IMG/VR virus record: IMGVR_UViG_3300021420_000022
Coordinates: 28,393 to 92,392 of that record
Source: a virus
Direction: 5' to 3' (one strand)
DNA length: 64,000 nt
Made by a program: the position numbers and the translations under genes. This document shows, in pieces, positions 41,124-57,339 of this stretch (position 1 is its first letter; the number at the start of each line of letters is the position of its first letter). The notes below the pieces were generated by a model. The model did no database searches. It worked only from the letters and a program-made list of their open reading frames with translations, and was not told where the DNA came from.

Positions 41124-41648
41124 ATGGCGCATCCAGATAATACAACATGGCATCCAGGCGCAGTAGTTCCGTGCGGCACCGGACACAGTCAAGACTTGCA
41201 GGTTCATTACTACCCGTTGTTCCATATCGAGCCACTGTTCAAAGTGAAGTTGCTCAACCCGAAAGCCAAGGTGCCGACGAAAGCGTACGAAGGCGACCTC
41301 GGCTGGGATTTGTATTCAGTCGGTCCGTATTGTCTCTGGAAAGGTGTTATCACCATGATCCAGACCGGCATCGCGATTCAACCGCGCACGGGATACGGCT
41401 GGATCGTCAAGGATCGGTCGAGCATGGCGAAAGCCCAAGTGTTCACGCACGGCGGCGTTGGCGACAACGGCTACCGTGGCGAGATCACGGTTGGCCTTAC
41501 ATGCGAGGACCCGCAATATTACATCAACGAGGGCGACAAGATCGCCCAGATCGTTTTCGTTCCGATAGTTGAAGGAAAGCCGGAAGTTGTCGAAGAGCTG
41601 GACCCAAGTGAACGCGGCGCACGTAAGTGGGGATCAAGCGGACGATGA
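41124..41648 (+). CDS. dut: dUTPase (trimeric)
   Basis: GWDL, RSSMA, GVGDNGYRGEI, GDKIAQ, RG...WGSSG. Confidence 0.92.
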   Translation: MAHPDNTTWHPGAVVPCGTGHSQDLQVHYYPLFHIEPLFKVKLLNPKAKVPTKAYEGDLGWDLYSVGPYCLWKGVITMIQTGIAIQPRTGYGWIVKDRSSMAKAQVFTHGGVGDNGYRGEITVGLTCEDPQYYINEGDKIAQIVFVPIVEGKPEVVEELDPSERGARKWGSSGR

Positions 41649-43918
41649 ATCCTGAGATCATAAAGCAACTCCGGAAGAAGCGTCTCTTCCTAGACTTTGA
41701 GTCACGGAGCTACGCGCCAATCAATGGGAAGTATTCCGTTGGTTTGTACAACTACATGGCGCATCCGACGACCGAGTTGCTGATGTGTGCGTACGCTTAT
41801 GGGGATTGTGACGACAAGCCGTTAGACGTAAAGCTGTGGCGCATGTGGACCGACGAGCCGATGCCCGACGATTTGCACGGCTGGCTCGAAGACGAGGGGG
41901 TAGACCTTGTTTCATTTAATTCTTCCTTTGAGAGATTCGGACTTTCCAAATCTGGCGTTACCTGCCCCACAGCTAGGTTCCAAGACCCCCAACCATCGGC
42001 TCGTATGCTCAGCCTACCAGCAGATTTGGATTTGGTCTCCGATATTCTTGGTCTGGACCGCGATCTGGGTAAAGATAAGCGAGGTGCGGCCTTAATCAAT
42101 CTGTTCTGCAAGCCTGTCATCAAGAAAGCTAAGAAGCCTACCAAGAAGAACCCTGCCGGAATTCCCGAACGAACATACTATAACGATTGGAACTCTCACC
42201 CGAAAGAGTGGGCCGAGTTTGCGGAGTACTGCAAGCAAGACGTGCGGGCCGAGCGTGAGGTTGCGCGCCGCGAGATTTTGTTAGGCGTGTTCCCGCTGCC
42301 CGAATTCGAGCGCGCCGTATGGTTATTCGATCAGAAAGTCAACGATCGTGGCATTCATGTCGACCGGCAGTTTGTTACGAACGGTCTCGCTCTCGGCATT
42401 CGCGCTAAGACTGAAACGAAGCGCGTGATGAATCAGTTGACCGGTCTGGAGAACTCGAATAGCCACGATCAACTTTTGCCGTGGGTGACAGCTCGCGGCT
42501 ATGATGATGATTCGTTGGAGAAGGACGCTGTAAAAACCGCGTTGAAGTTCAACACGAAGTTGACGCCTGAATGTCGAAAAATTCTGGAGCTAAGACTAAA
42601 TGCAAGTTCTACTACGTACACAAAATTGGCTGCTGTACTTCGGCAGCTTTGCGACGATGACAGGCTTCGAGGACAGTTTATTTATATGGGGTCGGCTCGT
42701 TGCGGGAGATGGTCGGGGAATGCTGTACAGATGCACAATATGGCCCGTCCCGAGCCTCTCTTCGAAGATGAGGAGATTGTTGATGAGGCCCGCGCACTCA
42801 TATTTCAGATGGGCTTTGACGGAATCATCAAGCGATTTGGAAAAGTTCTTCCGGGCGAAACAGATTACGGCTCTGTCCTTTCGACGATAAAGAACACGAT
42901 CCGAACGATGTTCGATGCGCCAGTCGGGAAACGCCTGAATGTATGCGATCTGAACGCTATCGAAACGCGTAACGCGGCGTACCTTTGTCAGTGCGAGCCG
43001 TTAAATCAGGTCTTCGTGCCTCGGCCCGGTAAGCCGAACGGCAACTGCCCATACTTGAGTTTCGCGGGCACGATGAACGGCATTCCGTACGACGTGCTTG
43101 AAACGGACTACCATAGCAAGGATAAAGCTATAAAGGCCGAAGCAAAGCGCAAGCGTCAAGTCGCGAAGCCAGCCGTGCTGGGTTGCGTGTATGAACTGGG
43201 TGGCGGGCGCGTCGAAACTGATCCGAAGACTAAGCGATTGCACAAGACCGGCCTGCTTGCTTACGCCGAGAAGATGGGGATCGATCTGAGTGAGAAGTTG
43301 TCTAACGACTCGGTGCGCGCCTTTCGAGAAGTCTACAAAGAGATCAAACAATCTTGGTACGATCTGAACAAAATCATTGAAGAGGTTCTTGCGGAAGGAA
43401 CTACTCGCGTCAAGCGTGAGTGGGGGCCGGGCGGCATCATCAAATTCGACAAGATTGTAATTCGAAAAGAAGGCTCTGTTCCAAAAGTCATTCTTCGCAT
43501 TCAGTTGCCATCTGGGCGCTACCTTCACTACTTCGATGCTCGCATCGAGATAATGAAGAAGCCGTGGAAGAACCACGAGACCGGCGAGGATGTCTACGGC
43601 CCAACGTTTGTGTATTCTGGGACGAATCAGGATACGCATCAATGGGGCAATCACATCACTAGCCACGGCGGAAAGGTTCTGGAGAACATAGATCAGGGCT
43701 GGTCGAGGGACGTTCTAGCCATCAAGTTGCTGTTGTTTGAAGCGTCCAACCTTTTCGTTGTCGGGCACGTACATGACGAGGGTATCGCCGAGACAGAGGA
43801 CGATCCGATAGCGCCCGGTCTGGCCGATATGGACGCGATCATGCGAATGCCGATAGATTGCGCGCCGGGTTTGTTGCTAGGTTGTGACGGATTCGAAGAC
43901 AAGTATTACCACAAATAA
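41645..43918 (+). CDS. DNA polymerase family A (APSE/SPO2-like)
   Basis: Exonuclease LDFESRS, FN..FER, YC.QDV; GRWSG..VQ.HN; motif A DLNAIE.R; motif B RQ.AK...LG..Y; motif C HVHDE. Confidence 0.93.
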   Translation: MNPEIIKQLRKKRLFLDFESRSYAPINGKYSVGLYNYMAHPTTELLMCAYAYGDCDDKPLDVKLWRMWTDEPMPDDLHGWLEDEGVDLVSFNSSFERFGLSKSGVTCPTARFQDPQPSARMLSLPADLDLVSDILGLDRDLGKDKRGAALINLFCKPVIKKAKKPTKKNPAGIPERTYYNDWNSHPKEWAEFAEYCKQDVRAEREVARREILLGVFPLPEFERAVWLFDQKVNDRGIHVDRQFVTNGLALGIRAKTETKRVMNQLTGLENSNSHDQLLPWVTARGYDDDSLEKDAVKTALKFNTKLTPECRKILELRLNASSTTYTKLAAVLRQLCDDDRLRGQFIYMGSARCGRWSGNAVQMHNMARPEPLFEDEEIVDEARALIFQMGFDGIIKRFGKVLPGETDYGSVLSTIKNTIRTMFDAPVGKRLNVCDLNAIETRNAAYLCQCEPLNQVFVPRPGKPNGNCPYLSFAGTMNGIPYDVLETDYHSKDKAIKAEAKRKRQVAKPAVLGCVYELGGGRVETDPKTKRLHKTGLLAYAEKMGIDLSEKLSNDSVRAFREVYKEIKQSWYDLNKIIEEVLAEGTTRVKREWGPGGIIKFDKIVIRKEGSVPKVILRIQLPSGRYLHYFDARIEIMKKPWKNHETGEDVYGPTFVYSGTNQDTHQWGNHITSHGGKVLENIDQGWSRDVLAIKLLLFEASNLFVVGHVHDEGIAETEDDPIAPGLADMDAIMRMPIDCAPGLLLGCDGFEDKYYHK

Positions 43919-43929
43919 TTGGAGGGAGT

Positions 43930-45093
43930 ATGTTTAAAAAGGTAAAACCTGTACAGTTGGAGTGGAGCAGCATCCTTGAGCAATTTCCGCACTGTGATCC
44001 GCGTATCTTGCATGCGCCGAGCGAGTGCAAATACTGCGACATGCATCTGGATTGGCAAGCTCTGCGGCAAGCGTGGGGAATTGCTTTCACGAATTACGAA
44101 CCTGAGGGAAATGAACTTCCCTGCCCAGCAAATCATGCTCGTGGGGAGAAAGGTGATTTTTGGCAGGGAAATGTTGCGAAGCCCAATAATTCTTTTGAAT
44201 TTGATATACCCGCTAACGCAACAATCACTGGTGTATCAGTCTCTGCAACAGTAAATCCGACAGAATTCGCAAATCCCGCGCTTGACGCAATCACGACGCA
44301 GCCGGTCGTGCTGCCGAATCCGGAGCCGTCCACGATTCTGCCATGTATCCAGAAGGATGCCCACCCACCGTTAACTGTTAGTCCTGAAACAGTACAGGAG
44401 CTACTAACAACGGAATTGAAATGCTTTCATAAATCTTCGAATGATCTGACTCCGGCCCAGATTTCCGCACAGGCCGCACTTACCGCAGTCAAACCAGCGG
44501 CTCTTGCGAGCGCCGCAAACGAAGCGTTTGTTGATATGGCCGCCCTCGCTGCAACGTTGCCGCCAGAGCATCCGTTAAACGCTATCGTGCCGCCGCCAGC
44601 TGAAGCACCAAAGAAACGCGCACGTAAGCCAAGTGAAGCTCAACAAACGGCGGGTAGCTCAATGGTAGAGCACTCGGTCGATAACCGAGAGGTTGCAGGT
44701 TCGATGCCTGCCCCGCCGACCACTTCTGTGTCGCCGAGCGCCGTCATTCCGGAAAGTCAGCCATCGACGACACTGCCTGCGCAGCCTGTTGAGCCGCCAA
44801 AAGTCGAGAAGTTGTTGAACCCGGAGCAAGAGAAAGAGATAAAGGAACGACTGGCGAAGTACCGCAATGAGATTCTGCCAACCGGGGGGATGGTCCCAGT
44901 TGATCAGGTTGGCGGCGTCGAAATTCAGCTTCGCAAATACGTCGCGCAGTTCTGTCCGGCCAAGCCGAGCAGCAAAACATGGGGATACGATGACTGGAAG
45001 AACTTCGTAGGCTTCTTTGACAACATGGTTGCGACAGTTGGCGCTGCTGGACTCGTGCAGCATATTCAACGGAAGATTGGGATAGCAAAATAA
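43930..45093 (+). CDS. Hypothetical protein: Cys/His N-domain, Pro/Ala linker, C-domain
   Basis: GGAGG SD; FPHCD.RILHAP..C.YCD; stop coupled to the helicase start (TAATG). Confidence 0.7.
   Translation: MFKKVKPVQLEWSSILEQFPHCDPRILHAPSECKYCDMHLDWQALRQAWGIAFTNYEPEGNELPCPANHARGEKGDFWQGNVAKPNNSFEFDIPANATITGVSVSATVNPTEFANPALDAITTQPVVLPNPEPSTILPCIQKDAHPPLTVSPETVQELLTTELKCFHKSSNDLTPAQISAQAALTAVKPAALASAANEAFVDMAALAATLPPEHPLNAIVPPPAEAPKKRARKPSEAQQTAGSSMVEHSVDNREVAGSMPAPPTTSVSPSAVIPESQPSTTLPAQPVEPPKVEKLLNPEQEKEIKERLAKYRNEILPTGGMVPVDQVGGVEIQLRKYVAQFCPAKPSSKTWGYDDWKNFVGFFDNMVATVGAAGLVQHIQRKIGIAK
44648..44722 (+). tRNA. tRNA-Ile(GAU) embedded in a CDS
   Basis: Acceptor CGGCGGG/CCCGCCG + ACCA; D-arm GCTC/GAGC; anticodon stem CTCGG/CCGAG with loop TCGATAA; T-arm GCAGG-TTCGATG-CCTGC. 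Confidence 0.85.
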
Positions 45094-46769
45094 TGGCTAA
45101 CTGCTTCATCGGAAACTACGGCCCGGATGCCGATCAACTCGTCTGCATAAACGCAGTCGAGGGGACTTATAATGTGGTCGCCGGGCCGGGGTCGGGAAAG
45201 ACCGCGACGTTGCTCCAGCGCTGGGTCAACATGCTGATGAATGGCATCGACCCCAAGAATACGCTAAATGTGACGTTCACTCACGAGGCGGCGGAAGAGA
45301 TGGTAAAGCGCCTCGGTTTCGCGGACACGGCGTCGATCTTCCGGACGTTCCACAGTTACGCTCTGGAGATCGTTCGCAAAGAGCGCGCCTGTCTGCCGTT
45401 CAAGACAACCGACGATGTCCTGCCGTTCTCTGGTGAGGACTATCAACTTTTGTTCGAGCTGGTCAAGACCTACCGCGCTGGAGTCAAAAATTTCCGCACC
45501 CTCAAGGACCATATCGTGGAGTGGAAGTGCGCGGACGTTTCCCCAGAGCAGGCTATAGACGAGACCCTTGGCTTAGAGCGATACTATGGGATGGCGTACC
45601 GCGATTACGAACGAAAGTGCCGCGAGCAAGGCTGGCTCGACTTCGACTCGCTGATGCATGAGACCGTTAATTTACTCGAACGCAATGACGACGTGAGGCA
45701 ACGATGGCAACGAGAATACATAGCCGTGGACGAGTGCCAGGACACGAATACCCTTCAATTTCGTTTCTTGCAGCTGTTATTCAAGAAGAACATCTTCGCG
45801 GTCGGCGACGAAAATCAGCTCGTGTACGAGTGGCGAAACGCGCAGGCCGGAAGTCTGTCAAATTTCGAGCAAAAGTTTCCCGGCTCGCAGAAGTTGTACT
45901 TAGGCCGGAATTATCGGAGCACCGGGGCGATAGTAAAATTCTTAAAGCGGATTCTGCCTGTAGACAACGGCCTCGGTTCACGTATGATGACAACGAACCC
46001 GTATGGCGAGGACCCGGTTATCACACGATATAGCGACGAGCTCGAAGAGGCTCAGCAAGTTATCGCATCGATCAAAGAGCCCGGCAAGACGGCGATACTG
46101 GCGCGCACGAACCGTCAGCTTTTCGAGTACCAGAAGATACTGACGAAGCAGGGCCAGAAGTACCGTATTCTCGGGAAGAAAGACTACTGGGAGCAGAACG
46201 AAGTGCGAGCCCTCCTCCGGCTGGCGAAAGACGATCTGAGCCTCCGGCCTGCTCACGAGGTGCTCGCTAGGATCATTGAGCGGGAGAGATTCTTCGATAA
46301 GTATCGCTACGCGCAGAACCCGATGGAGTCGAGCCCGGTCGAGAACCTGAACGACATCGTCAAGATGGCGGCGACCGAATCCCGGTCGAAGACGGGTGAA
46401 GTCAAATGGTCTGGGCGCGGATCGATCAGCGAATTCTTGGCTTATCTACGGCGTCTGACTTACGGGCGCAAAGGTAAGAACGGAGAGGCTGTCACGCTCG
46501 CTACAGTCCATCAGGCCAAAGGCCACGAGTGGGATTACGTCTACGTGATCGGTGTGAATCAGAAGAAAATGCCACACAAAGACGGAGAACTTCCGGAAGA
46601 GCGACGCATCTTCTACGTCGCGGCATCCCGCCCAGCGAAGGAGTTGCATTTCAGCTATACTGGTCAGCGCAGTCAGTTCTGGCCGGAAGAATACCCGAGT
46701 CGGATGTACGTCGGCCCAGCAATGGGGAACACGGAGGAGACAGATGGCGTTTCTCTACATCAACAGTAA
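45093..46769 (+). CDS. UvrD/Rep-family SF1 helicase
   Basis: AGPGSGKT, VTFT, TFHS, VDECQD, VGDENQ, NYRS, TVHQAKGHE, EERRIFYVA.SR. Confidence 0.93.
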   Translation: MANCFIGNYGPDADQLVCINAVEGTYNVVAGPGSGKTATLLQRWVNMLMNGIDPKNTLNVTFTHEAAEEMVKRLGFADTASIFRTFHSYALEIVRKERACLPFKTTDDVLPFSGEDYQLLFELVKTYRAGVKNFRTLKDHIVEWKCADVSPEQAIDETLGLERYYGMAYRDYERKCREQGWLDFDSLMHETVNLLERNDDVRQRWQREYIAVDECQDTNTLQFRFLQLLFKKNIFAVGDENQLVYEWRNAQAGSLSNFEQKFPGSQKLYLGRNYRSTGAIVKFLKRILPVDNGLGSRMMTTNPYGEDPVITRYSDELEEAQQVIASIKEPGKTAILARTNRQLFEYQKILTKQGQKYRILGKKDYWEQNEVRALLRLAKDDLSLRPAHEVLARIIERERFFDKYRYAQNPMESSPVENLNDIVKMAATESRSKTGEVKWSGRGSISEFLAYLRRLTYGRKGKNGEAVTLATVHQAKGHEWDYVYVIGVNQKKMPHKDGELPEERRIFYVAASRPAKELHFSYTGQRSQFWPEEYPSRMYVGPAMGNTEETDGVSLHQQ

Positions 46770-47958
46770 GGGCACACCGTGGCGGAAGCATTCATACAGT
46801 GCAGGCACCGACTTCGATGCGTGCCCCTACAAGTACTTCCTACGTCGTGTGCAAGGTTGGAAAGAGCGGGATAATAAGGCGCGACTGCTATTTGGTAAGG
46901 CTCTTGAACTTGCTGTTCAGTTCTATCACGAGCACGACGGGCAGGGCGCTCGCGATGAGTTTCATCGGCTCTGGTCGATTTTCAAGGAGCGAAATGATAT
47001 CCAATACACAAAAACTGAAAAGGATTGGGCCACGCTCGACATGGATGGGGACGACTTGCTTCGACTGTATGCAATTAAACTTCCCTCCCTGCCGATACCA
47101 CTTAGAGGCCAAATTGTCTTTCAACGAGAAGTCAAAAAAGAAGTCTTCCCTGGCGACCCCAACTACGGCGATATAGTCGACGCCGGAATCTGCGACATGA
47201 TATGCTGGGTCGACCCGCATCATCCGAAGTTGCCGCGTATCGACTGGAAGCCAGAGTACGGCTTGCTACGCCCGTTGATTGTCGACATGAAGACTTCCGG
47301 TCGTCCGTATCCTGAGGAGCAAGGCATGGCGGCGTTCGACGAACAGCTGCGGCGGTATAGCTGGCTCAGCGGGATTCACGATGTGGCCTTCTCAGTCTTC
47401 GTCAAAGCTGGACGAAAGCTGCAGAAAGGTTCGCGCTTGACATTGCTCGAAGATTGTGGTACATTTAAAGCAGGAGATGAGGCTATAGTCGCCAAGACTG
47501 ATGGTGAGCACTGCTGGATCGTGGCGCACGAATTTATGCTCGATCAGATGGACGCCGCGCAAGGCGAGAAAAAGGACAAAAATGGCACGCTCAAAACCGA
47601 TCAAACAAACGCGGCTAAAGACCGTGCAATGGACTGGCTTCAGCATAACGGATGCCGTGTTCCAAATACAGCAACTACTCGACAACGAGTACAATTTAAT
47701 GCAGGATTGGTCACGACTGAATCTCAACTCGATGCTGGGCAAGCATGCGCGAACCAAATCGTCGGAATAGTCAACGCATGGAAGACCAAGAAGTGGCCGA
47801 ACAAGTTTGGCGTGCGGTTCCCTCACGACAACCGGTCCGACCCATATTTTCAGGCTTTTGTTCTGAAGGACGAAGTATTTCGGAATGCGAATTTTGTAAA
47901 AACCGACGAGGAGACAATGGAAGACCTTTTCGCGGACGAAAGTGAGGCCGAGGAATGA
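46744..47958 (+). CDS. PD-(D/E)XK nuclease (AddB/Cas4-like)
   Basis: SYS......CP.KY, FG..LE, G..D, IVDMKTS, QL..Y. Confidence 0.8.
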   Translation: MAFLYINSKGTPWRKHSYSAGTDFDACPYKYFLRRVQGWKERDNKARLLFGKALELAVQFYHEHDGQGARDEFHRLWSIFKERNDIQYTKTEKDWATLDMDGDDLLRLYAIKLPSLPIPLRGQIVFQREVKKEVFPGDPNYGDIVDAGICDMICWVDPHHPKLPRIDWKPEYGLLRPLIVDMKTSGRPYPEEQGMAAFDEQLRRYSWLSGIHDVAFSVFVKAGRKLQKGSRLTLLEDCGTFKAGDEAIVAKTDGEHCWIVAHEFMLDQMDAAQGEKKDKNGTLKTDQTNAAKDRAMDWLQHNGCRVPNTATTRQRVQFNAGLVTTESQLDAGQACANQIVGIVNAWKTKKWPNKFGVRFPHDNRSDPYFQAFVLKDEVFRNANFVKTDEETMEDLFADESEAEE

Positions 47959-56242: not shown

Positions 56243-56605
56243 ATGCACGGAAAGCTTTATTATGACCAGCGCAAATCACTCGGCTTATGCCCACGATGCG
56301 GAAATTCAGTTGACGGTCGAGTGATTTGCCTTCCGTGTCTTGCAAAGCAAAAGTTGTCTAAGTTAGACCTATCACCCGAGGAAACCGAAAAAGCGAGAAC
56401 CTCCTTTCTGAATTTTGACGGAACATGTCAATGCTGCGGTTCGAGTGATCCCGGTGGAAAGAAGGGTTGGTGTATTGACCACGATCACATTCGAAGAGTT
56501 TTTCGAGGAATCATATGCCAACACTGTAACATAATGCTAGGTCGGGCTCACGATCAAATTGAATGGCTCTTCGCGGGCATCAAATATTTGAGAAAATTTT
56601 TATGA
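56243..56605 (+). CDS. Endonuclease VII-family (HNH) protein
   Basis: CQCCG...IDHDH....RGIIC..CN.MLG..D; stop overlaps the tmRNA acceptor piece. Confidence 0.85.
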   Translation: MHGKLYYDQRKSLGLCPRCGNSVDGRVICLPCLAKQKLSKLDLSPEETEKARTSFLNFDGTCQCCGSSDPGGKKGWCIDHDHIRRVFRGIICQHCNIMLGRAHDQIEWLFAGIKYLRKFL

Positions 56606-56935
56606 GTTACGCACGTCAATGTCTCATGGTCACTCACGCGGACGCGGGTTCGATCCCCGCTAGGTCCACCAATCCTATCACGGCCTTGTTAATTCACATG
56701 GCCGAGATAACTTCTGCGGGCCTAAATTGGTTTCGACGGGTGAGATTGATGGTGGGAAGCTCGTGCCGTAAGTGGACACTGTCGATATCAGTGTACCAAA
56801 CTAAAAATGCCATGCGAATGCTGGCGAAGGCTGTAAGCTTTGTGAAGTCGCTGTTCACCATGCCGAATTTTGGTATGGAAGCAGCCGCTTCCATGGCCTA
56901 GAGCCGGGAGGGGCTGTCCGAAAGATGGCCCCTTC
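56602..56935 (+). ncRNA. ssrA: Circularly permuted (two-piece) tmRNA
   Basis: Acceptor piece ends GGAC-GCGGG-TTCGATC-CCCGC-TAGGTCC-ACCA (56671); 46-nt intervening segment; coding piece starts GGGCCTA-AATTGGTTTCGAC (56718); G3-U70 pair; tag ORF 56809-56901; 3' hairpin. Confidence 0.9.
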
Positions 56936-56958
56936 ACTTTCAAAAATAGGAGACGACA

Positions 56959-57339
56959 ATGGCAGTGAAAAAGAAGGGCAAGAAAAAGAGCAGGAAATCA
57001 CCGAAGAAAGTAACAGGAGAGAAAATGATCAAGCTGACTGACAAGAACGGCGAGGCACTCAACCTGCTCGCGACTCGGGCGTCTGATGAATCGCATTACG
57101 CTACGCGGAGTGCGATCCGTAAGGCCCTGGACGAAACCGTAGAGTACAACGGCGGCGGATATTCTCAGATTACCCGCGAGCCGCTTGTCGAACTTCAGAT
57201 CCGACGAAATGACCGCGACGATGTCACCTACACTGAGTCGCTGACGGTCGGCGTCATATTCAAGCGCGGGATTCTTCAGTTCGGCTGCCACACTTTCAAC
57301 CGGGCGACCTCGAAGCAGATCGTTCAATGGGCGCGATGA
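56959..57339 (+). CDS. Hypothetical protein between the two tag cassettes
   Basis: AGGAG SD; Lys-rich N-terminus. Confidence 0.65.
   Translation: MAVKKKGKKKSRKSPKKVTGEKMIKLTDKNGEALNLLATRASDESHYATRSAIRKALDETVEYNGGGYSQITREPLVELQIRRNDRDDVTYTESLTVGVIFKRGILQFGCHTFNRATSKQIVQWAR

What the first reader, a model, noticed from the sequence alone, without database searches (positions are those of the whole stretch)
44648..44722. Complete tRNA-Ile(GAU) hidden within a protein-coding gene on the same strand
Seen: a 75-nt cloverleaf with all four stems perfectly paired and an encoded CCA lies in the Pro/Ala linker of the 387-aa ORF 43930-45093. It reads through as TAGSSMVEHSVDNREVAGSMPAPPT with no stop. 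It deviates from consensus with C at the near-invariant U33 (loop UCGAUAA) and T-loop TTCGATG. Inference: it may be a dual-coding tRNA, an anticodon-nuclease-resistant or decoy tRNA, or an RNase P cleavage device in the polymerase-helicase transcript. Cleavage would leave a nonstop mRNA for the N-terminal ~240 aa, which is the kind of substrate the phage tmRNA could tag.
Basis: partly seen in the sequence, partly recalled or inferred. Interest (0 to 1): 0.82.

Follow-up and report, generated by a model that had tools for sequence, protein, structure and literature searches.

The report
tRNA gene nested inside phage gene
A complete, healthy-looking isoleucine tRNA gene lies in frame inside the flexible linker of a replication-module protein gene of an uncultured phage, and a few diverged relatives keep the same insert, so this DNA appears to serve as both tRNA and protein code.

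Summary
Window 44648-44722 (+) is a full tRNA-Ile(GAU): ARAGORN calls it, Rfam scores it 68 bits, all 21 stem pairs are standard and CCA is encoded. It sits in frame in the 387-aa ORF 43930-45093.

That ORF is a real gene. It has 26 close homologs, and related loci keep the order polymerase, this gene, UvrD helicase, PD-(D/E)XK nuclease. Most homologs are one continuous protein without the insert, so this is not two genes flanking a free tRNA.

The 25 tRNA codons fall in a predicted disordered linker and use the only open frame of the three. Four other family members carry the same insert at the same site and frame. These insert peptides are 79-88% identical, against 42-66% for the best protein domain. 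Their differences concentrate at unpaired tRNA positions (p=0.017). The carriers are scattered on the gene tree. A sixth member seems to carry a different nested tRNA.

Cautions: C33 replaces the near-universal U33, one relative has C55, no homolog DNA could be fetched, and no RNA data were available.

Best reading (about 55%): a working tRNA gene nested in a tolerant linker. Main rival: a young relic. This scan has already found similar nested tRNAs in other phage DNA; the only published precedent I found is bacterial selC inside selB.

The parts
44648..44722 (+). Complete tRNA-Ile(GAU) gene, 75 nt. Stems of 7/4/5/5 bp are all standard pairs, the discriminator is A73 and CCA is encoded. C33 stands in place of U33.
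   Evidence: ARAGORN. Rfam RF00005 68 bits, E 1.1e-12. MFE cloverleaf z -4.5. Fold persists in context. C33 is 1 of 120 among comparable phage tRNAs.
43930..45093 (+). Host gene, 387 aa, no Pfam or PHROG family. It has a Cys-rich N-terminal part, conserved short motifs, a long disordered linker and a helical C-terminal domain.
   Evidence: ORF list. 26 homologs with E 4e-84 to 1e-43. Alignment A1. More than 5000 distant relatives. No family hit.
44647..44724 (+). The 26 codons (residues 240-265, TAGSS...PAPPTT) that read through the tRNA. The anticodon GAT is itself codon Asp251.
   Evidence: Translation in three frames; only the ORF's frame is open.
44584..44820 (+). Predicted disordered linker (about residues 219-297) that holds the insert.
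   Evidence: AlphaFold2 with alignment A1: no secondary structure from 219 to 297, and 10-residue pLDDT means of 45-53 over residues 221-280. This region is hypervariable in length and sequence among homologs.
44800..45090 (+). Conserved helical C-terminal domain of the host protein (residues 291-387).
   Evidence: pLDDT 81-95. It is the best conserved block of the family.
44705..45093 (+). The source database's own 129-aa gene call (P0028), which starts at the ATG inside the tRNA T-loop. It is most likely an artefact of calling genes around a masked tRNA.
   Evidence: Cluster look-up and sequence. The Met is Ile in P0011 and Thr in P0018, so the start is not conserved.
41627..43918 (+). DNA polymerase gene directly upstream (context; same operon by spacing).
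   Evidence: PHROG 17 DNA polymerase, E 3e-71. An 11-nt gap holding GGAGG lies before the host ORF.
45093..46769 (+). UvrD-type helicase gene. Its ATG overlaps the host ORF's TAA (ATAATG), which suggests translational coupling.
   Evidence: Pfam UvrD-helicase, E 1.3e-52. Sequence.
46744..47958 (+). PD-(D/E)XK nuclease gene (context).
   Evidence: Pfam PDDEXK_1, E 1.7e-6. The same gene order occurs in homologous locus L003.

Best explanation
A genuine tRNA-Ile(GAU) gene is nested, on the sense strand and in frame, in the disordered interdomain linker of a phage replication/recombination-module gene. The 75 nt (25 codons) entered the linker as one block, by insertion or by recombination with another phage. 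They survive there because the linker tolerates extra residues and because the one open frame of the tRNA is the frame used. The stretch is transcribed as part of the polymerase-X-helicase mRNA. Transcripts that stay intact are translated through it, giving the full-length protein with a tRNA-encoded linker peptide. Transcripts, or their decay intermediates, in which the cloverleaf folds are cut by RNase P and 3'-end nucleases to release the phage's only tRNA. That tRNA would supplement or replace host tRNA-Ile(GAU) during infection. Selection therefore acts on the same DNA as tRNA and as readable code. Shown here: the tRNA's quality, the single continuous gene, the in-frame placement in a disordered linker, the recurrence in relatives, and the loop-biased variation. 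Inferred: transcription within the operon, processing, aminoacylation and the benefit to the phage.
For: (1) tRNA quality. The Rfam score of 68 bits lies within the 56-78 bits of free-standing phage tRNA-Ile(GAU) of the same type and above most of the roughly 150 phage tRNAs scored alongside. All 21 pairs are standard. U8, A14, G18G19, A21, R37, T54-T55-C56-R57-A58 and the A15-U48 pair are present by direct reading. The anticodon stem is identical to that of more than 100 free-standing phage tRNA-Ile.
(2) The host ORF is one gene. It has 26 close homologs, and 22 of the aligned family members are continuous without the insert. The gene order is conserved.
(3) The insert lies in a coil region with pLDDT 45-48 and in the only open frame.
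(4) The same insert occurs at the same site and frame in P0011, P0023, P0018 and P0021. Insert peptides are 79-88% identical to the window's, against 42-66% for the best conserved domain and about 20-30% for the upstream flank.
(5) Among sites visible at codon positions 1-2, the four distinct copies vary at 3 of 29 paired and 9 of 21 unpaired tRNA positions (Fisher p=0.017). All 21 pairs remain possible in every copy. Two of the three stem changes keep a wobble pair, and the third can be compensated by a synonymous third-position change.
(6) A sixth family member, P0066, has a different tRNA-like insert (anticodon GUN) at another linker site and in another phase, with 21 of 21 pairs possible. 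Nesting therefore recurs in this family.
(7) It is the only tRNA in the 92-kb record.
(8) The cloverleaf folds independently in mRNA context.
Against: C33 replaces U33, and the change is synonymous (GTT to GTC), so protein coding did not force it; 118 of 120 comparable phage tRNAs keep U33. One relative (P0018) must carry C55 in place of the invariant U55 (Ser to Pro). Both are what relaxed constraint would produce. The high similarity of the insert relative to its flanks could also reflect recent spread by recombination rather than purifying selection: the carriers are scattered on the core tree (4 changes, at least 3 forced). No DNA of the other carriers was obtained, so no compensatory base change was observed directly. 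No dedicated promoter or terminator was found. No RNA evidence of processing or charging exists. The insert is rare in the family: 5-6 of 170 proteins, and 0 of 80 IMG/VR loci of the wider family.
Confidence: 0.55

Rival explanations
1. Young relic. A tRNA gene was captured in the linker, or spread by recombination between phages, and now survives only as tolerated linker codons. It no longer works as a tRNA and is starting to decay.
For: C33 arose by a synonymous change at a near-invariant position. C55 is required in P0018. The carriers are scattered on the tree, consistent with recent lateral spread, which would also explain the high similarity. The insert is rare in the family.
Against: The score of 68 bits is undiminished relative to free-standing phage tRNAs. 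Not one of 21 pairs is broken in the window, and none is necessarily broken in three diverged copies. Variation is biased to unpaired positions (p=0.017), which protein-level or neutral evolution does not predict.
Confidence: 0.27
2. Cis-acting processing or regulatory element. The tRNA shape is kept mainly as an RNase P/RNase Z cleavage signal. It would cut the operon mRNA inside gene X and so set the ratio of full-length X to truncated X, or uncouple polymerase from helicase expression. The non-stop 5' fragment would then be handled by trans-translation, possibly by the phage's own permuted tmRNA at 56579-57132.
For: The element sits inside a tightly packed, translationally coupled operon. 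The phage encodes a tmRNA. Mukai proposed the same logic for selC inside selB (PMC8124441).
Against: A cleavage signal needs only the acceptor and T arms. Here the D arm, the anticodon arm and the GAU anticodon are conserved in all four copies (Asp-Asn codons invariant). Most family members do without the element. Nothing links tmRNA to this gene.
Confidence: 0.1
3. Two separate genes flank a free-standing tRNA, as the source database's gene call implies (a 129-aa product starting in the T-loop). The continuous frame would then be accidental.
For: The database call P0028. Short calls P0170 and P0074 from other samples begin just after the insert site.
Against: Homologs without the insert are single proteins that join the same upstream motifs to the same C-terminal domain. 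The frame is open in all five carriers. The T-loop ATG is not conserved: it is Ile in P0011 and Thr in P0018. There is no stop before the tRNA and no start codon with a ribosome-binding site just after it.
Confidence: 0.03
4. Phage attachment site (attP): a tRNA copy used for integration into a host tRNA-Ile gene.
For: Many temperate phages integrate into tRNA genes (general knowledge).
Against: No tyrosine or serine recombinase is found in the 92-kb record, which is 72% complete. The tRNA lies inside a replication operon, not beside an integrase. The whole tRNA is present, not only its 3' part. No cellular genome in the GTDB set matched the extended pattern.
Confidence: 0.01

Closest known systems
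selC (tRNA-Sec) nested inside the selB ORF of Alphaproteobacteria (Mukai 2021, Int J Mol Sci 22:4605, PMC8124441; read)
   Same: An entire tRNA gene lies on the sense strand inside a protein ORF and is translated without a stop. The tRNA length is a multiple of three, which keeps the frame. The ORF's stop overlaps the start of the next gene. The trait is patchily distributed, with remnant copies in some lineages. The paper proposes that tRNA processing competes with full-length protein expression. That paper is also a purely bioinformatic prediction.
   Different: There the tRNA forms a C-terminal extension; here it is an internal interdomain linker with a conserved domain downstream. There the tRNA and the protein are functional partners (SelB carries Sec-tRNA); here no link between tRNA-Ile and the host protein is evident. 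That case is cellular and this one is phage. In this family the insert is rare and scattered, rather than conserved across an order.
Free-standing phage-encoded tRNA genes (T4, T5, cyanophage tRNA arrays), including the hypothesis that they replace host tRNAs depleted by anticodon nucleases (van den Berg et al. 2023, eLife, PMC10264068; read)
   Same: It is a phage-borne elongator tRNA of a type common in phages: at least 119 IMG/VR contigs carry tRNA-Ile(GAU) with the same D arm and anticodon stem. An anticodon-loop change (C33) is the kind of change that paper discusses.
   Different: All 119 comparators are intergenic or sit in tRNA arrays, and their longest spanning frames are 149 aa or less. 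This one lies inside a 387-aa conserved gene. The paper does not mention position 33 or tRNA-Ile, so the nuclease-escape reading of C33 is only an analogy.
tRNA integrated in the cox1 coding region of the Armadillidium vulgare mitochondrial genome (Doublet et al. 2015, as cited by Mukai), and mitochondrial tRNA punctuation in general
   Same: A tRNA sequence overlaps protein-coding sequence in direct orientation, and processing competes with the mRNA.
   Different: That arrangement is driven by extreme genome compaction in an organelle. Here the tRNA is an addition to a linker that most relatives lack.
Other nested in-frame tRNAs found earlier by this scan in unrelated phage genes (notes e1-3294985/e1-3294340 primase-helicase; e1-5827392, e1-5337812, e1-5903734 small marine-phage genes; e1-5349390 HldE)
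   Same: The layout is the same: a complete tRNA, on the sense strand, in frame, in a flexible linker of a phage protein. Some relatives carry it and others do not, and different tRNAs occur at such sites.
   Different: The host gene family and the tRNA (Ile-GAU) differ. Here the insert is rarer and no homolog DNA was available. Those notes are unchecked AI notes, not publications.

Membership tests
tRNA (Rfam RF00005) | Score above the curated gathering threshold over the full-length model | tested here: met
   68.0 bits against a 29-bit cut-off, model positions 1-71 of 71, E 1.1e-12. ARAGORN agrees.
tRNA (Rfam RF00005) | Cloverleaf with 7/4/5/5-bp stems made of standard pairs | tested here: met
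   No non-standard pair is flagged in the cmscan alignment. The MFE and centroid structures are the cloverleaf.
tRNA (Rfam RF00005) | Near-invariant nucleotides U8, A14, G18G19, A21, U33, R37, T54-Psi55-C56, A58 | tested here: inconclusive
   All are present except U33, which is C. C33 occurs in 2 of 120 comparable phage tRNAs.
tRNA (Rfam RF00005) | Expressed, processed at both ends and aminoacylated | not testable with these tools
tRNA-Ile(GAU) isoacceptor | Anticodon GAU with A37 and A38 | tested here: met
   The loop reads U-C-G-A-U-A-A. The Asp-Asn codons that spell GAUAAC are invariant in all five carriers.
tRNA-Ile(GAU) isoacceptor | E. coli IleRS identity set: A73, C4-G69, U12-A23, C29-G41 (recalled from memory, Nureki et al. 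1994; the definition was not checked here) | tested here: met
   All four are present by direct reading of the sequence. The list itself rests on recall, and the host's IleRS is unknown.
Nested tRNA-in-ORF of the selB-selC kind (Mukai 2021) | The whole tRNA lies inside an ORF on the sense strand and is read through without a stop | tested here: met
   The ORF is validated by homologs.
Nested tRNA-in-ORF of the selB-selC kind (Mukai 2021) | tRNA length is a multiple of three, and the ORF's stop overlaps the next start | tested here: met
   75 nt equals 25 codons. ATAATG at 45090-45095 joins the ORF to the helicase gene.
Nested tRNA-in-ORF of the selB-selC kind (Mukai 2021) | The tRNA forms the C-terminal extension of a protein that functionally partners it | tested here: not met
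   The insert is internal (residues 240-265 of 387) with a conserved domain downstream. No link between tRNA-Ile and the host protein is evident.
Phage attP in a tRNA gene | An integrase gene in the genome, usually adjacent | tested here: not met
   No PF00589 or PF00239 match in the 92-kb record, while the controls were positive. The record is only 72% complete.
Single-strand annealing protein (Rad52/Sak/RecT-like) as identity of the host gene | N-terminal annealing domain | tested here: not met
   The commonest family form has an N-domain whose nearest named Atlas clusters are Rad52 (0.91), RecT (0.88) and Sak (0.87), which are leads only. The window's protein lacks that domain and has a Cys-rich N-terminus instead. 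Pfam, PHROGs, PDB sequence search and Foldseek gave nothing significant.

The most novel reading that the evidence does not exclude
The nested tRNA is a built-in switch. Each transcript of the replication operon is either translated through, giving full-length protein X and coupled helicase translation, or cut by RNase P to give tRNA-Ile plus a non-stop mRNA. The truncated N-terminal product of that mRNA would be tagged by the phage's own permuted tmRNA. The phage would thereby tie the dosage of a replication/recombination factor to the translational state of the cell. C33 would additionally make the tRNA resistant to a host anticodon nuclease.
Probability: 0.08. Interest if true: 0.85.

Novelty: new variant of a known kind. 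Interest (0 to 1): 0.6.

Why it matters
Gene finders mask tRNAs before calling proteins. Nested tRNAs are therefore mis-annotated systematically: here the source database splits a 387-aa gene and reports a 129-aa fragment. If the tRNA works, one stretch of DNA is under two kinds of selection at once, as RNA fold and as readable codons, and one transcript must choose between being mRNA and being pre-tRNA. Apart from the bioinformatic selB-selC report, I found no paper describing this layout in bacteria or phages. This scan now sees it repeatedly in unrelated phage genes, which suggests that flexible protein linkers are a general landing site for phage tRNA genes. That is directly testable by tRNA sequencing and proteomics once a host-phage pair or a clone is in hand.

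Tried and rejected
- GenBank phages. There is no protein homolog of the ORF. At the DNA level only the tRNA part matches, at 76-82% identity to tRNA-Asn or tRNA-Met genes of unrelated phages.
- More carriers through a region-restricted protein search: nothing new.
- 80 IMG/VR loci of the wider family: no nested tRNA.
- A dedicated promoter or terminator for the tRNA: none convincing. There is one 9-of-12 promoter-like site 200 nt upstream, at background frequency.
- Function of the host protein. Pfam, PHROGs, a PDB profile search and Foldseek gave nothing significant. Weak Red-beta C-terminal-domain rows (probability 0.12) and the Atlas Rad52/RecT/Sak rows are leads only.
- attP reading: rejected, because no integrase or resolvase was found.
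- 'Two genes' reading: rejected on the homolog alignment.
- Target-site duplication around the insert: none seen by eye.

Full report
**1. The observation**

ARAGORN reports one tRNA in the window, tRNA-Ile with anticodon GAT at 44648-44722 (+). It also reports a permuted tmRNA at 56579-57132. Rfam's tRNA model matches 44648-44719 end to end at 68.0 bits (gathering score 29, E 1.1e-12) with no non-standard pair flagged.

The 75 nt fold into the cloverleaf at -36.8 kcal/mol, z = -4.5, and none of 200 shuffles folds as well. The same cloverleaf appears as a separate domain in both the MFE and centroid structures of a 275-nt stretch of the surrounding mRNA.

The ORF 43930-45093 (387 aa) reads through the tRNA as TAGSSMVEHSVDNREVAGSMPAPPTT. 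The other two forward frames each hit stop codons (TAG in the D arm or TAA in the anticodon loop), so the gene uses the only open frame. The anticodon GAT is itself one in-frame codon (Asp).

In 120 phage tRNA-Ile(GAU) with the same D arm, positions 32-33 are CT in 110, TT in 8, CC in 1, and TC only here. The remark about the T-loop is not correct. TTCGATG has T54, T55, C56, R57 and A58, and only the variable positions 59-60 differ from the commonest loop.

**2. The host ORF is one real gene**

The window is part of a 92,392-base IMG/VR virus record, estimated 72% complete. Upstream lies a DNA polymerase gene (PHROG 17, E 3e-71). Downstream lie a UvrD-type helicase and a PD-(D/E)XK nuclease. 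The genes are packed: an 11-nt gap with GGAGG precedes the ORF, and its TAA overlaps the helicase ATG.

The ORF has no Pfam or PHROG family. It does have 26 clear homologs in metagenomes (E 4e-84 to 1e-43) and more than 5000 distant ones. A homologous locus shows the same order of polymerase, X, UvrD and nuclease (L003).

In the alignment (A1) the family has four parts:
- a swappable N-terminal domain;
- conserved short motifs;
- a linker that is hypervariable in length and sequence;
- a well conserved C-terminal domain.

Of the 26 aligned proteins, 22 are continuous without any tRNA-like insert. This refutes 'two genes flanking a free tRNA'. The source database does call a 129-aa protein that starts at the ATG inside the T-loop (P0028). 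That Met is Ile or Thr in relatives, so the call looks like an artefact of masking the tRNA before gene calling.

An AlphaFold2 model built on A1 gives coil from residue 219 to 297, with pLDDT 45-48 over the insert. The C-terminal domain is a confident helical fold (pLDDT 81-95).

**3. The insert recurs in relatives**

Four other family members carry the same peptide at the same place and in the same frame. It sits immediately upstream of the (S/P)VSxSA.IP.SQ motif where that motif is present.
- P0011 and the fragment P0023: AGSSAVEHSADNRATAGSIPAPPT
- P0018: AGSSTVEHSVDNREVAGPTPAPPT
- P0021: AGSSEVEHPADNREIAGSMPASPT

They are 79-88% identical to the window's insert. For the same protein pairs, the best conserved domain is 42-66% identical and the upstream flank about 20-30%.

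Back-translating the peptides shows that all 21 base pairs remain possible in every copy. Among nucleotides visible at codon positions 1 and 2, the four distinct copies vary at 3 of 29 paired positions and 9 of 21 unpaired ones (Fisher p = 0.017). The unpaired variation falls in the D-loop, position 32, the variable loop, T-loop positions 59-60 and the last base of CCA.

Of the three stem changes, two turn C-G into U-G. The third (U28 to C in P0021) faces a third codon position and can be compensated silently. This pattern is what selection on an RNA fold predicts. Selection on a linker peptide, or neutral drift, does not predict it.

A generic scan of 170 family proteins for peptides compatible with a cloverleaf recovered these copies. 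It also found one more, in P0066: a different insert with anticodon GUN, at another linker site and in another phase, with 21 of 21 pairs possible. Two short database proteins from other samples (P0170, P0074) begin just after the insert site. They may be further split calls around masked tRNAs, but this is unverified.

**4. Distribution**

On a maximum-likelihood tree of the conserved blocks, with the insert and linker left out, the four carriers are scattered. Four changes are needed, and at least three are forced by well supported branches. The window sits in a 99/99 clade with five insert-less proteins.

P0002 has an 'empty site' that differs from the window essentially by the 25 codons. 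The insert has therefore either been lost precisely several times or moved between phages by recombination within this mosaic linker.

It is rare. It occurs in 5-6 of 170 sampled proteins, and in none of 80 IMG/VR loci of the wider family.

**5. How good is the tRNA compared with free-standing ones?**

At least 119 IMG/VR contigs carry tRNA-Ile(GAU) with the same D arm and the same anticodon stem. All are intergenic or sit in tRNA arrays, and the longest frames spanning them are 149 aa or less. A sample of them scores 56-78 bits on the Rfam model, and about 150 neighbouring phage tRNAs score 46-78 bits. The nested copy, at 68 bits, is in the upper half.

By direct reading it also has A73, C4-G69, U12-A23 and C29-G41. 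I recall these as the E. coli IleRS identity set (Nureki et al. 1994); this is from memory and was not checked here.

It is the only tRNA in the record. Of the Ile codons in the phage's long ORFs, 84% are AUC or AUU, which is unremarkable.

**6. What argues for caution**

C33 arose by a change that is silent in the protein (GTT to GTC), so coding did not force it. P0018 must carry C55.

Either change may mean relaxed constraint. C33 could instead be adaptive: anticodon-loop changes in phage tRNAs have been proposed to evade host anticodon nucleases (PMC10264068). That paper does not treat position 33 or tRNA-Ile.

High similarity of the insert relative to its flanks could come from recent lateral spread rather than purifying selection.

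I could not obtain RNA reads either.

No promoter or terminator specific to the tRNA is apparent, so transcription must be from the operon.

**7. Explanation and rivals**

Most likely (about 0.55): a working tRNA-Ile gene nested in a tolerant linker. It would be transcribed with the replication operon. Each transcript would be either translated through or processed by RNase P and 3' nucleases.

Main rival (about 0.27): a young relic that now only encodes linker residues.

Lesser rivals:
- A processing or regulatory device, possibly linked to the phage tmRNA (about 0.1). The conserved anticodon arm argues against a pure cleavage signal.
- Two separate genes (about 0.03).
- attP (about 0.01). 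No integrase or resolvase is found in the record.

**8. Comparison with what is known**

The one published precedent I could find and read is Mukai 2021 (PMC8124441). [quoted passage not shown]

Shared features are a whole tRNA translated in frame, a length that is a multiple of three, a stop overlapping the next start, a patchy distribution with remnants, and a proposed competition between processing and translation. The differences are that the tRNA here is internal rather than C-terminal, has no evident functional tie to the host protein, and is in a phage.

Full-text searches for phage cases found none.

This scan has noted the same layout before on other DNA, in primase-helicase, small marine-phage genes and HldE. 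Those are unchecked AI notes. They make this a further member of a recurring but apparently unpublished pattern, not a first sighting.

**9. Verdict**

Against the literature this is a new variant of a known kind. Interest is moderate to high (0.6). It is limited by the lack of DNA-level covariation and RNA evidence for this particular case, and by the two off-consensus bases.

Noticed in passing
window 56579-57132 (+): A phage-encoded circularly permuted tmRNA. ARAGORN calls tmRNA* with a 29-aa tag, and Rfam tmRNA_permuted scores 66.7 bits at 56611-56812.
   Followed up: partly
window 43930-44290 (+), residues 1-120 of the host protein: The family's N-terminal domain is swappable. Most members carry a roughly 170-aa domain whose nearest named Atlas clusters are Rad52, RecT and Sak annealing proteins (leads only). 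The window has a Cys/His-rich N-terminus instead, P0018 has a DUF2158-like one, and P0001, P0003 and P0005 have almost none.
   Followed up: partly
P0066, residues 176-201 (no DNA held): A distant family member has a second, different tRNA-like peptide in its linker: NGASSNSVGHLTVNQDGEGSNPSAPVQ. All 21 pairs are possible, the anticodon is GUN, and both the phase and the site differ from the Ile insert.
   Followed up: partly
P0170 and P0074 (no DNA held): Two short JGI gene calls (121 and 125 aa) begin right after the position where the tRNA insert sits in relatives. They may mark further loci where a masked tRNA split the gene call.
   Followed up: no
L015:3094-3165, also L019, L032, L099, L113, L118: A group of phage contigs carries a tRNA-Ile(GAU)-like gene with an odd T-loop (GGTCAGCACC in place of GGTTCGANNCC). 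It scores 56 bits, and a 111-codon open frame spans it symmetrically inside a tRNA array. Whether that frame is a gene was not examined.
   Followed up: no
L014:1705-1955 and 2452-2659; L010:482-518; L119:2054-2090: The free-standing comparators sit in large phage tRNA arrays. These arrays also hold a cyanobacterial-type tmRNA, a manA RNA motif and abiF RNA motifs.
   Followed up: no
window 41627-43918 (+): The 763-aa DNA polymerase has no Pfam hit at E 0.01 or better and is recognised only by PHROG 17. It is a divergent polymerase.
   Followed up: no
window 45090-45095 and 46744-46769: Gene overlaps occur in the operon. The host ORF's stop and the helicase start share ATAATG, and the helicase and PD-(D/E)XK nuclease genes overlap by 26 nt.
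   Followed up: no
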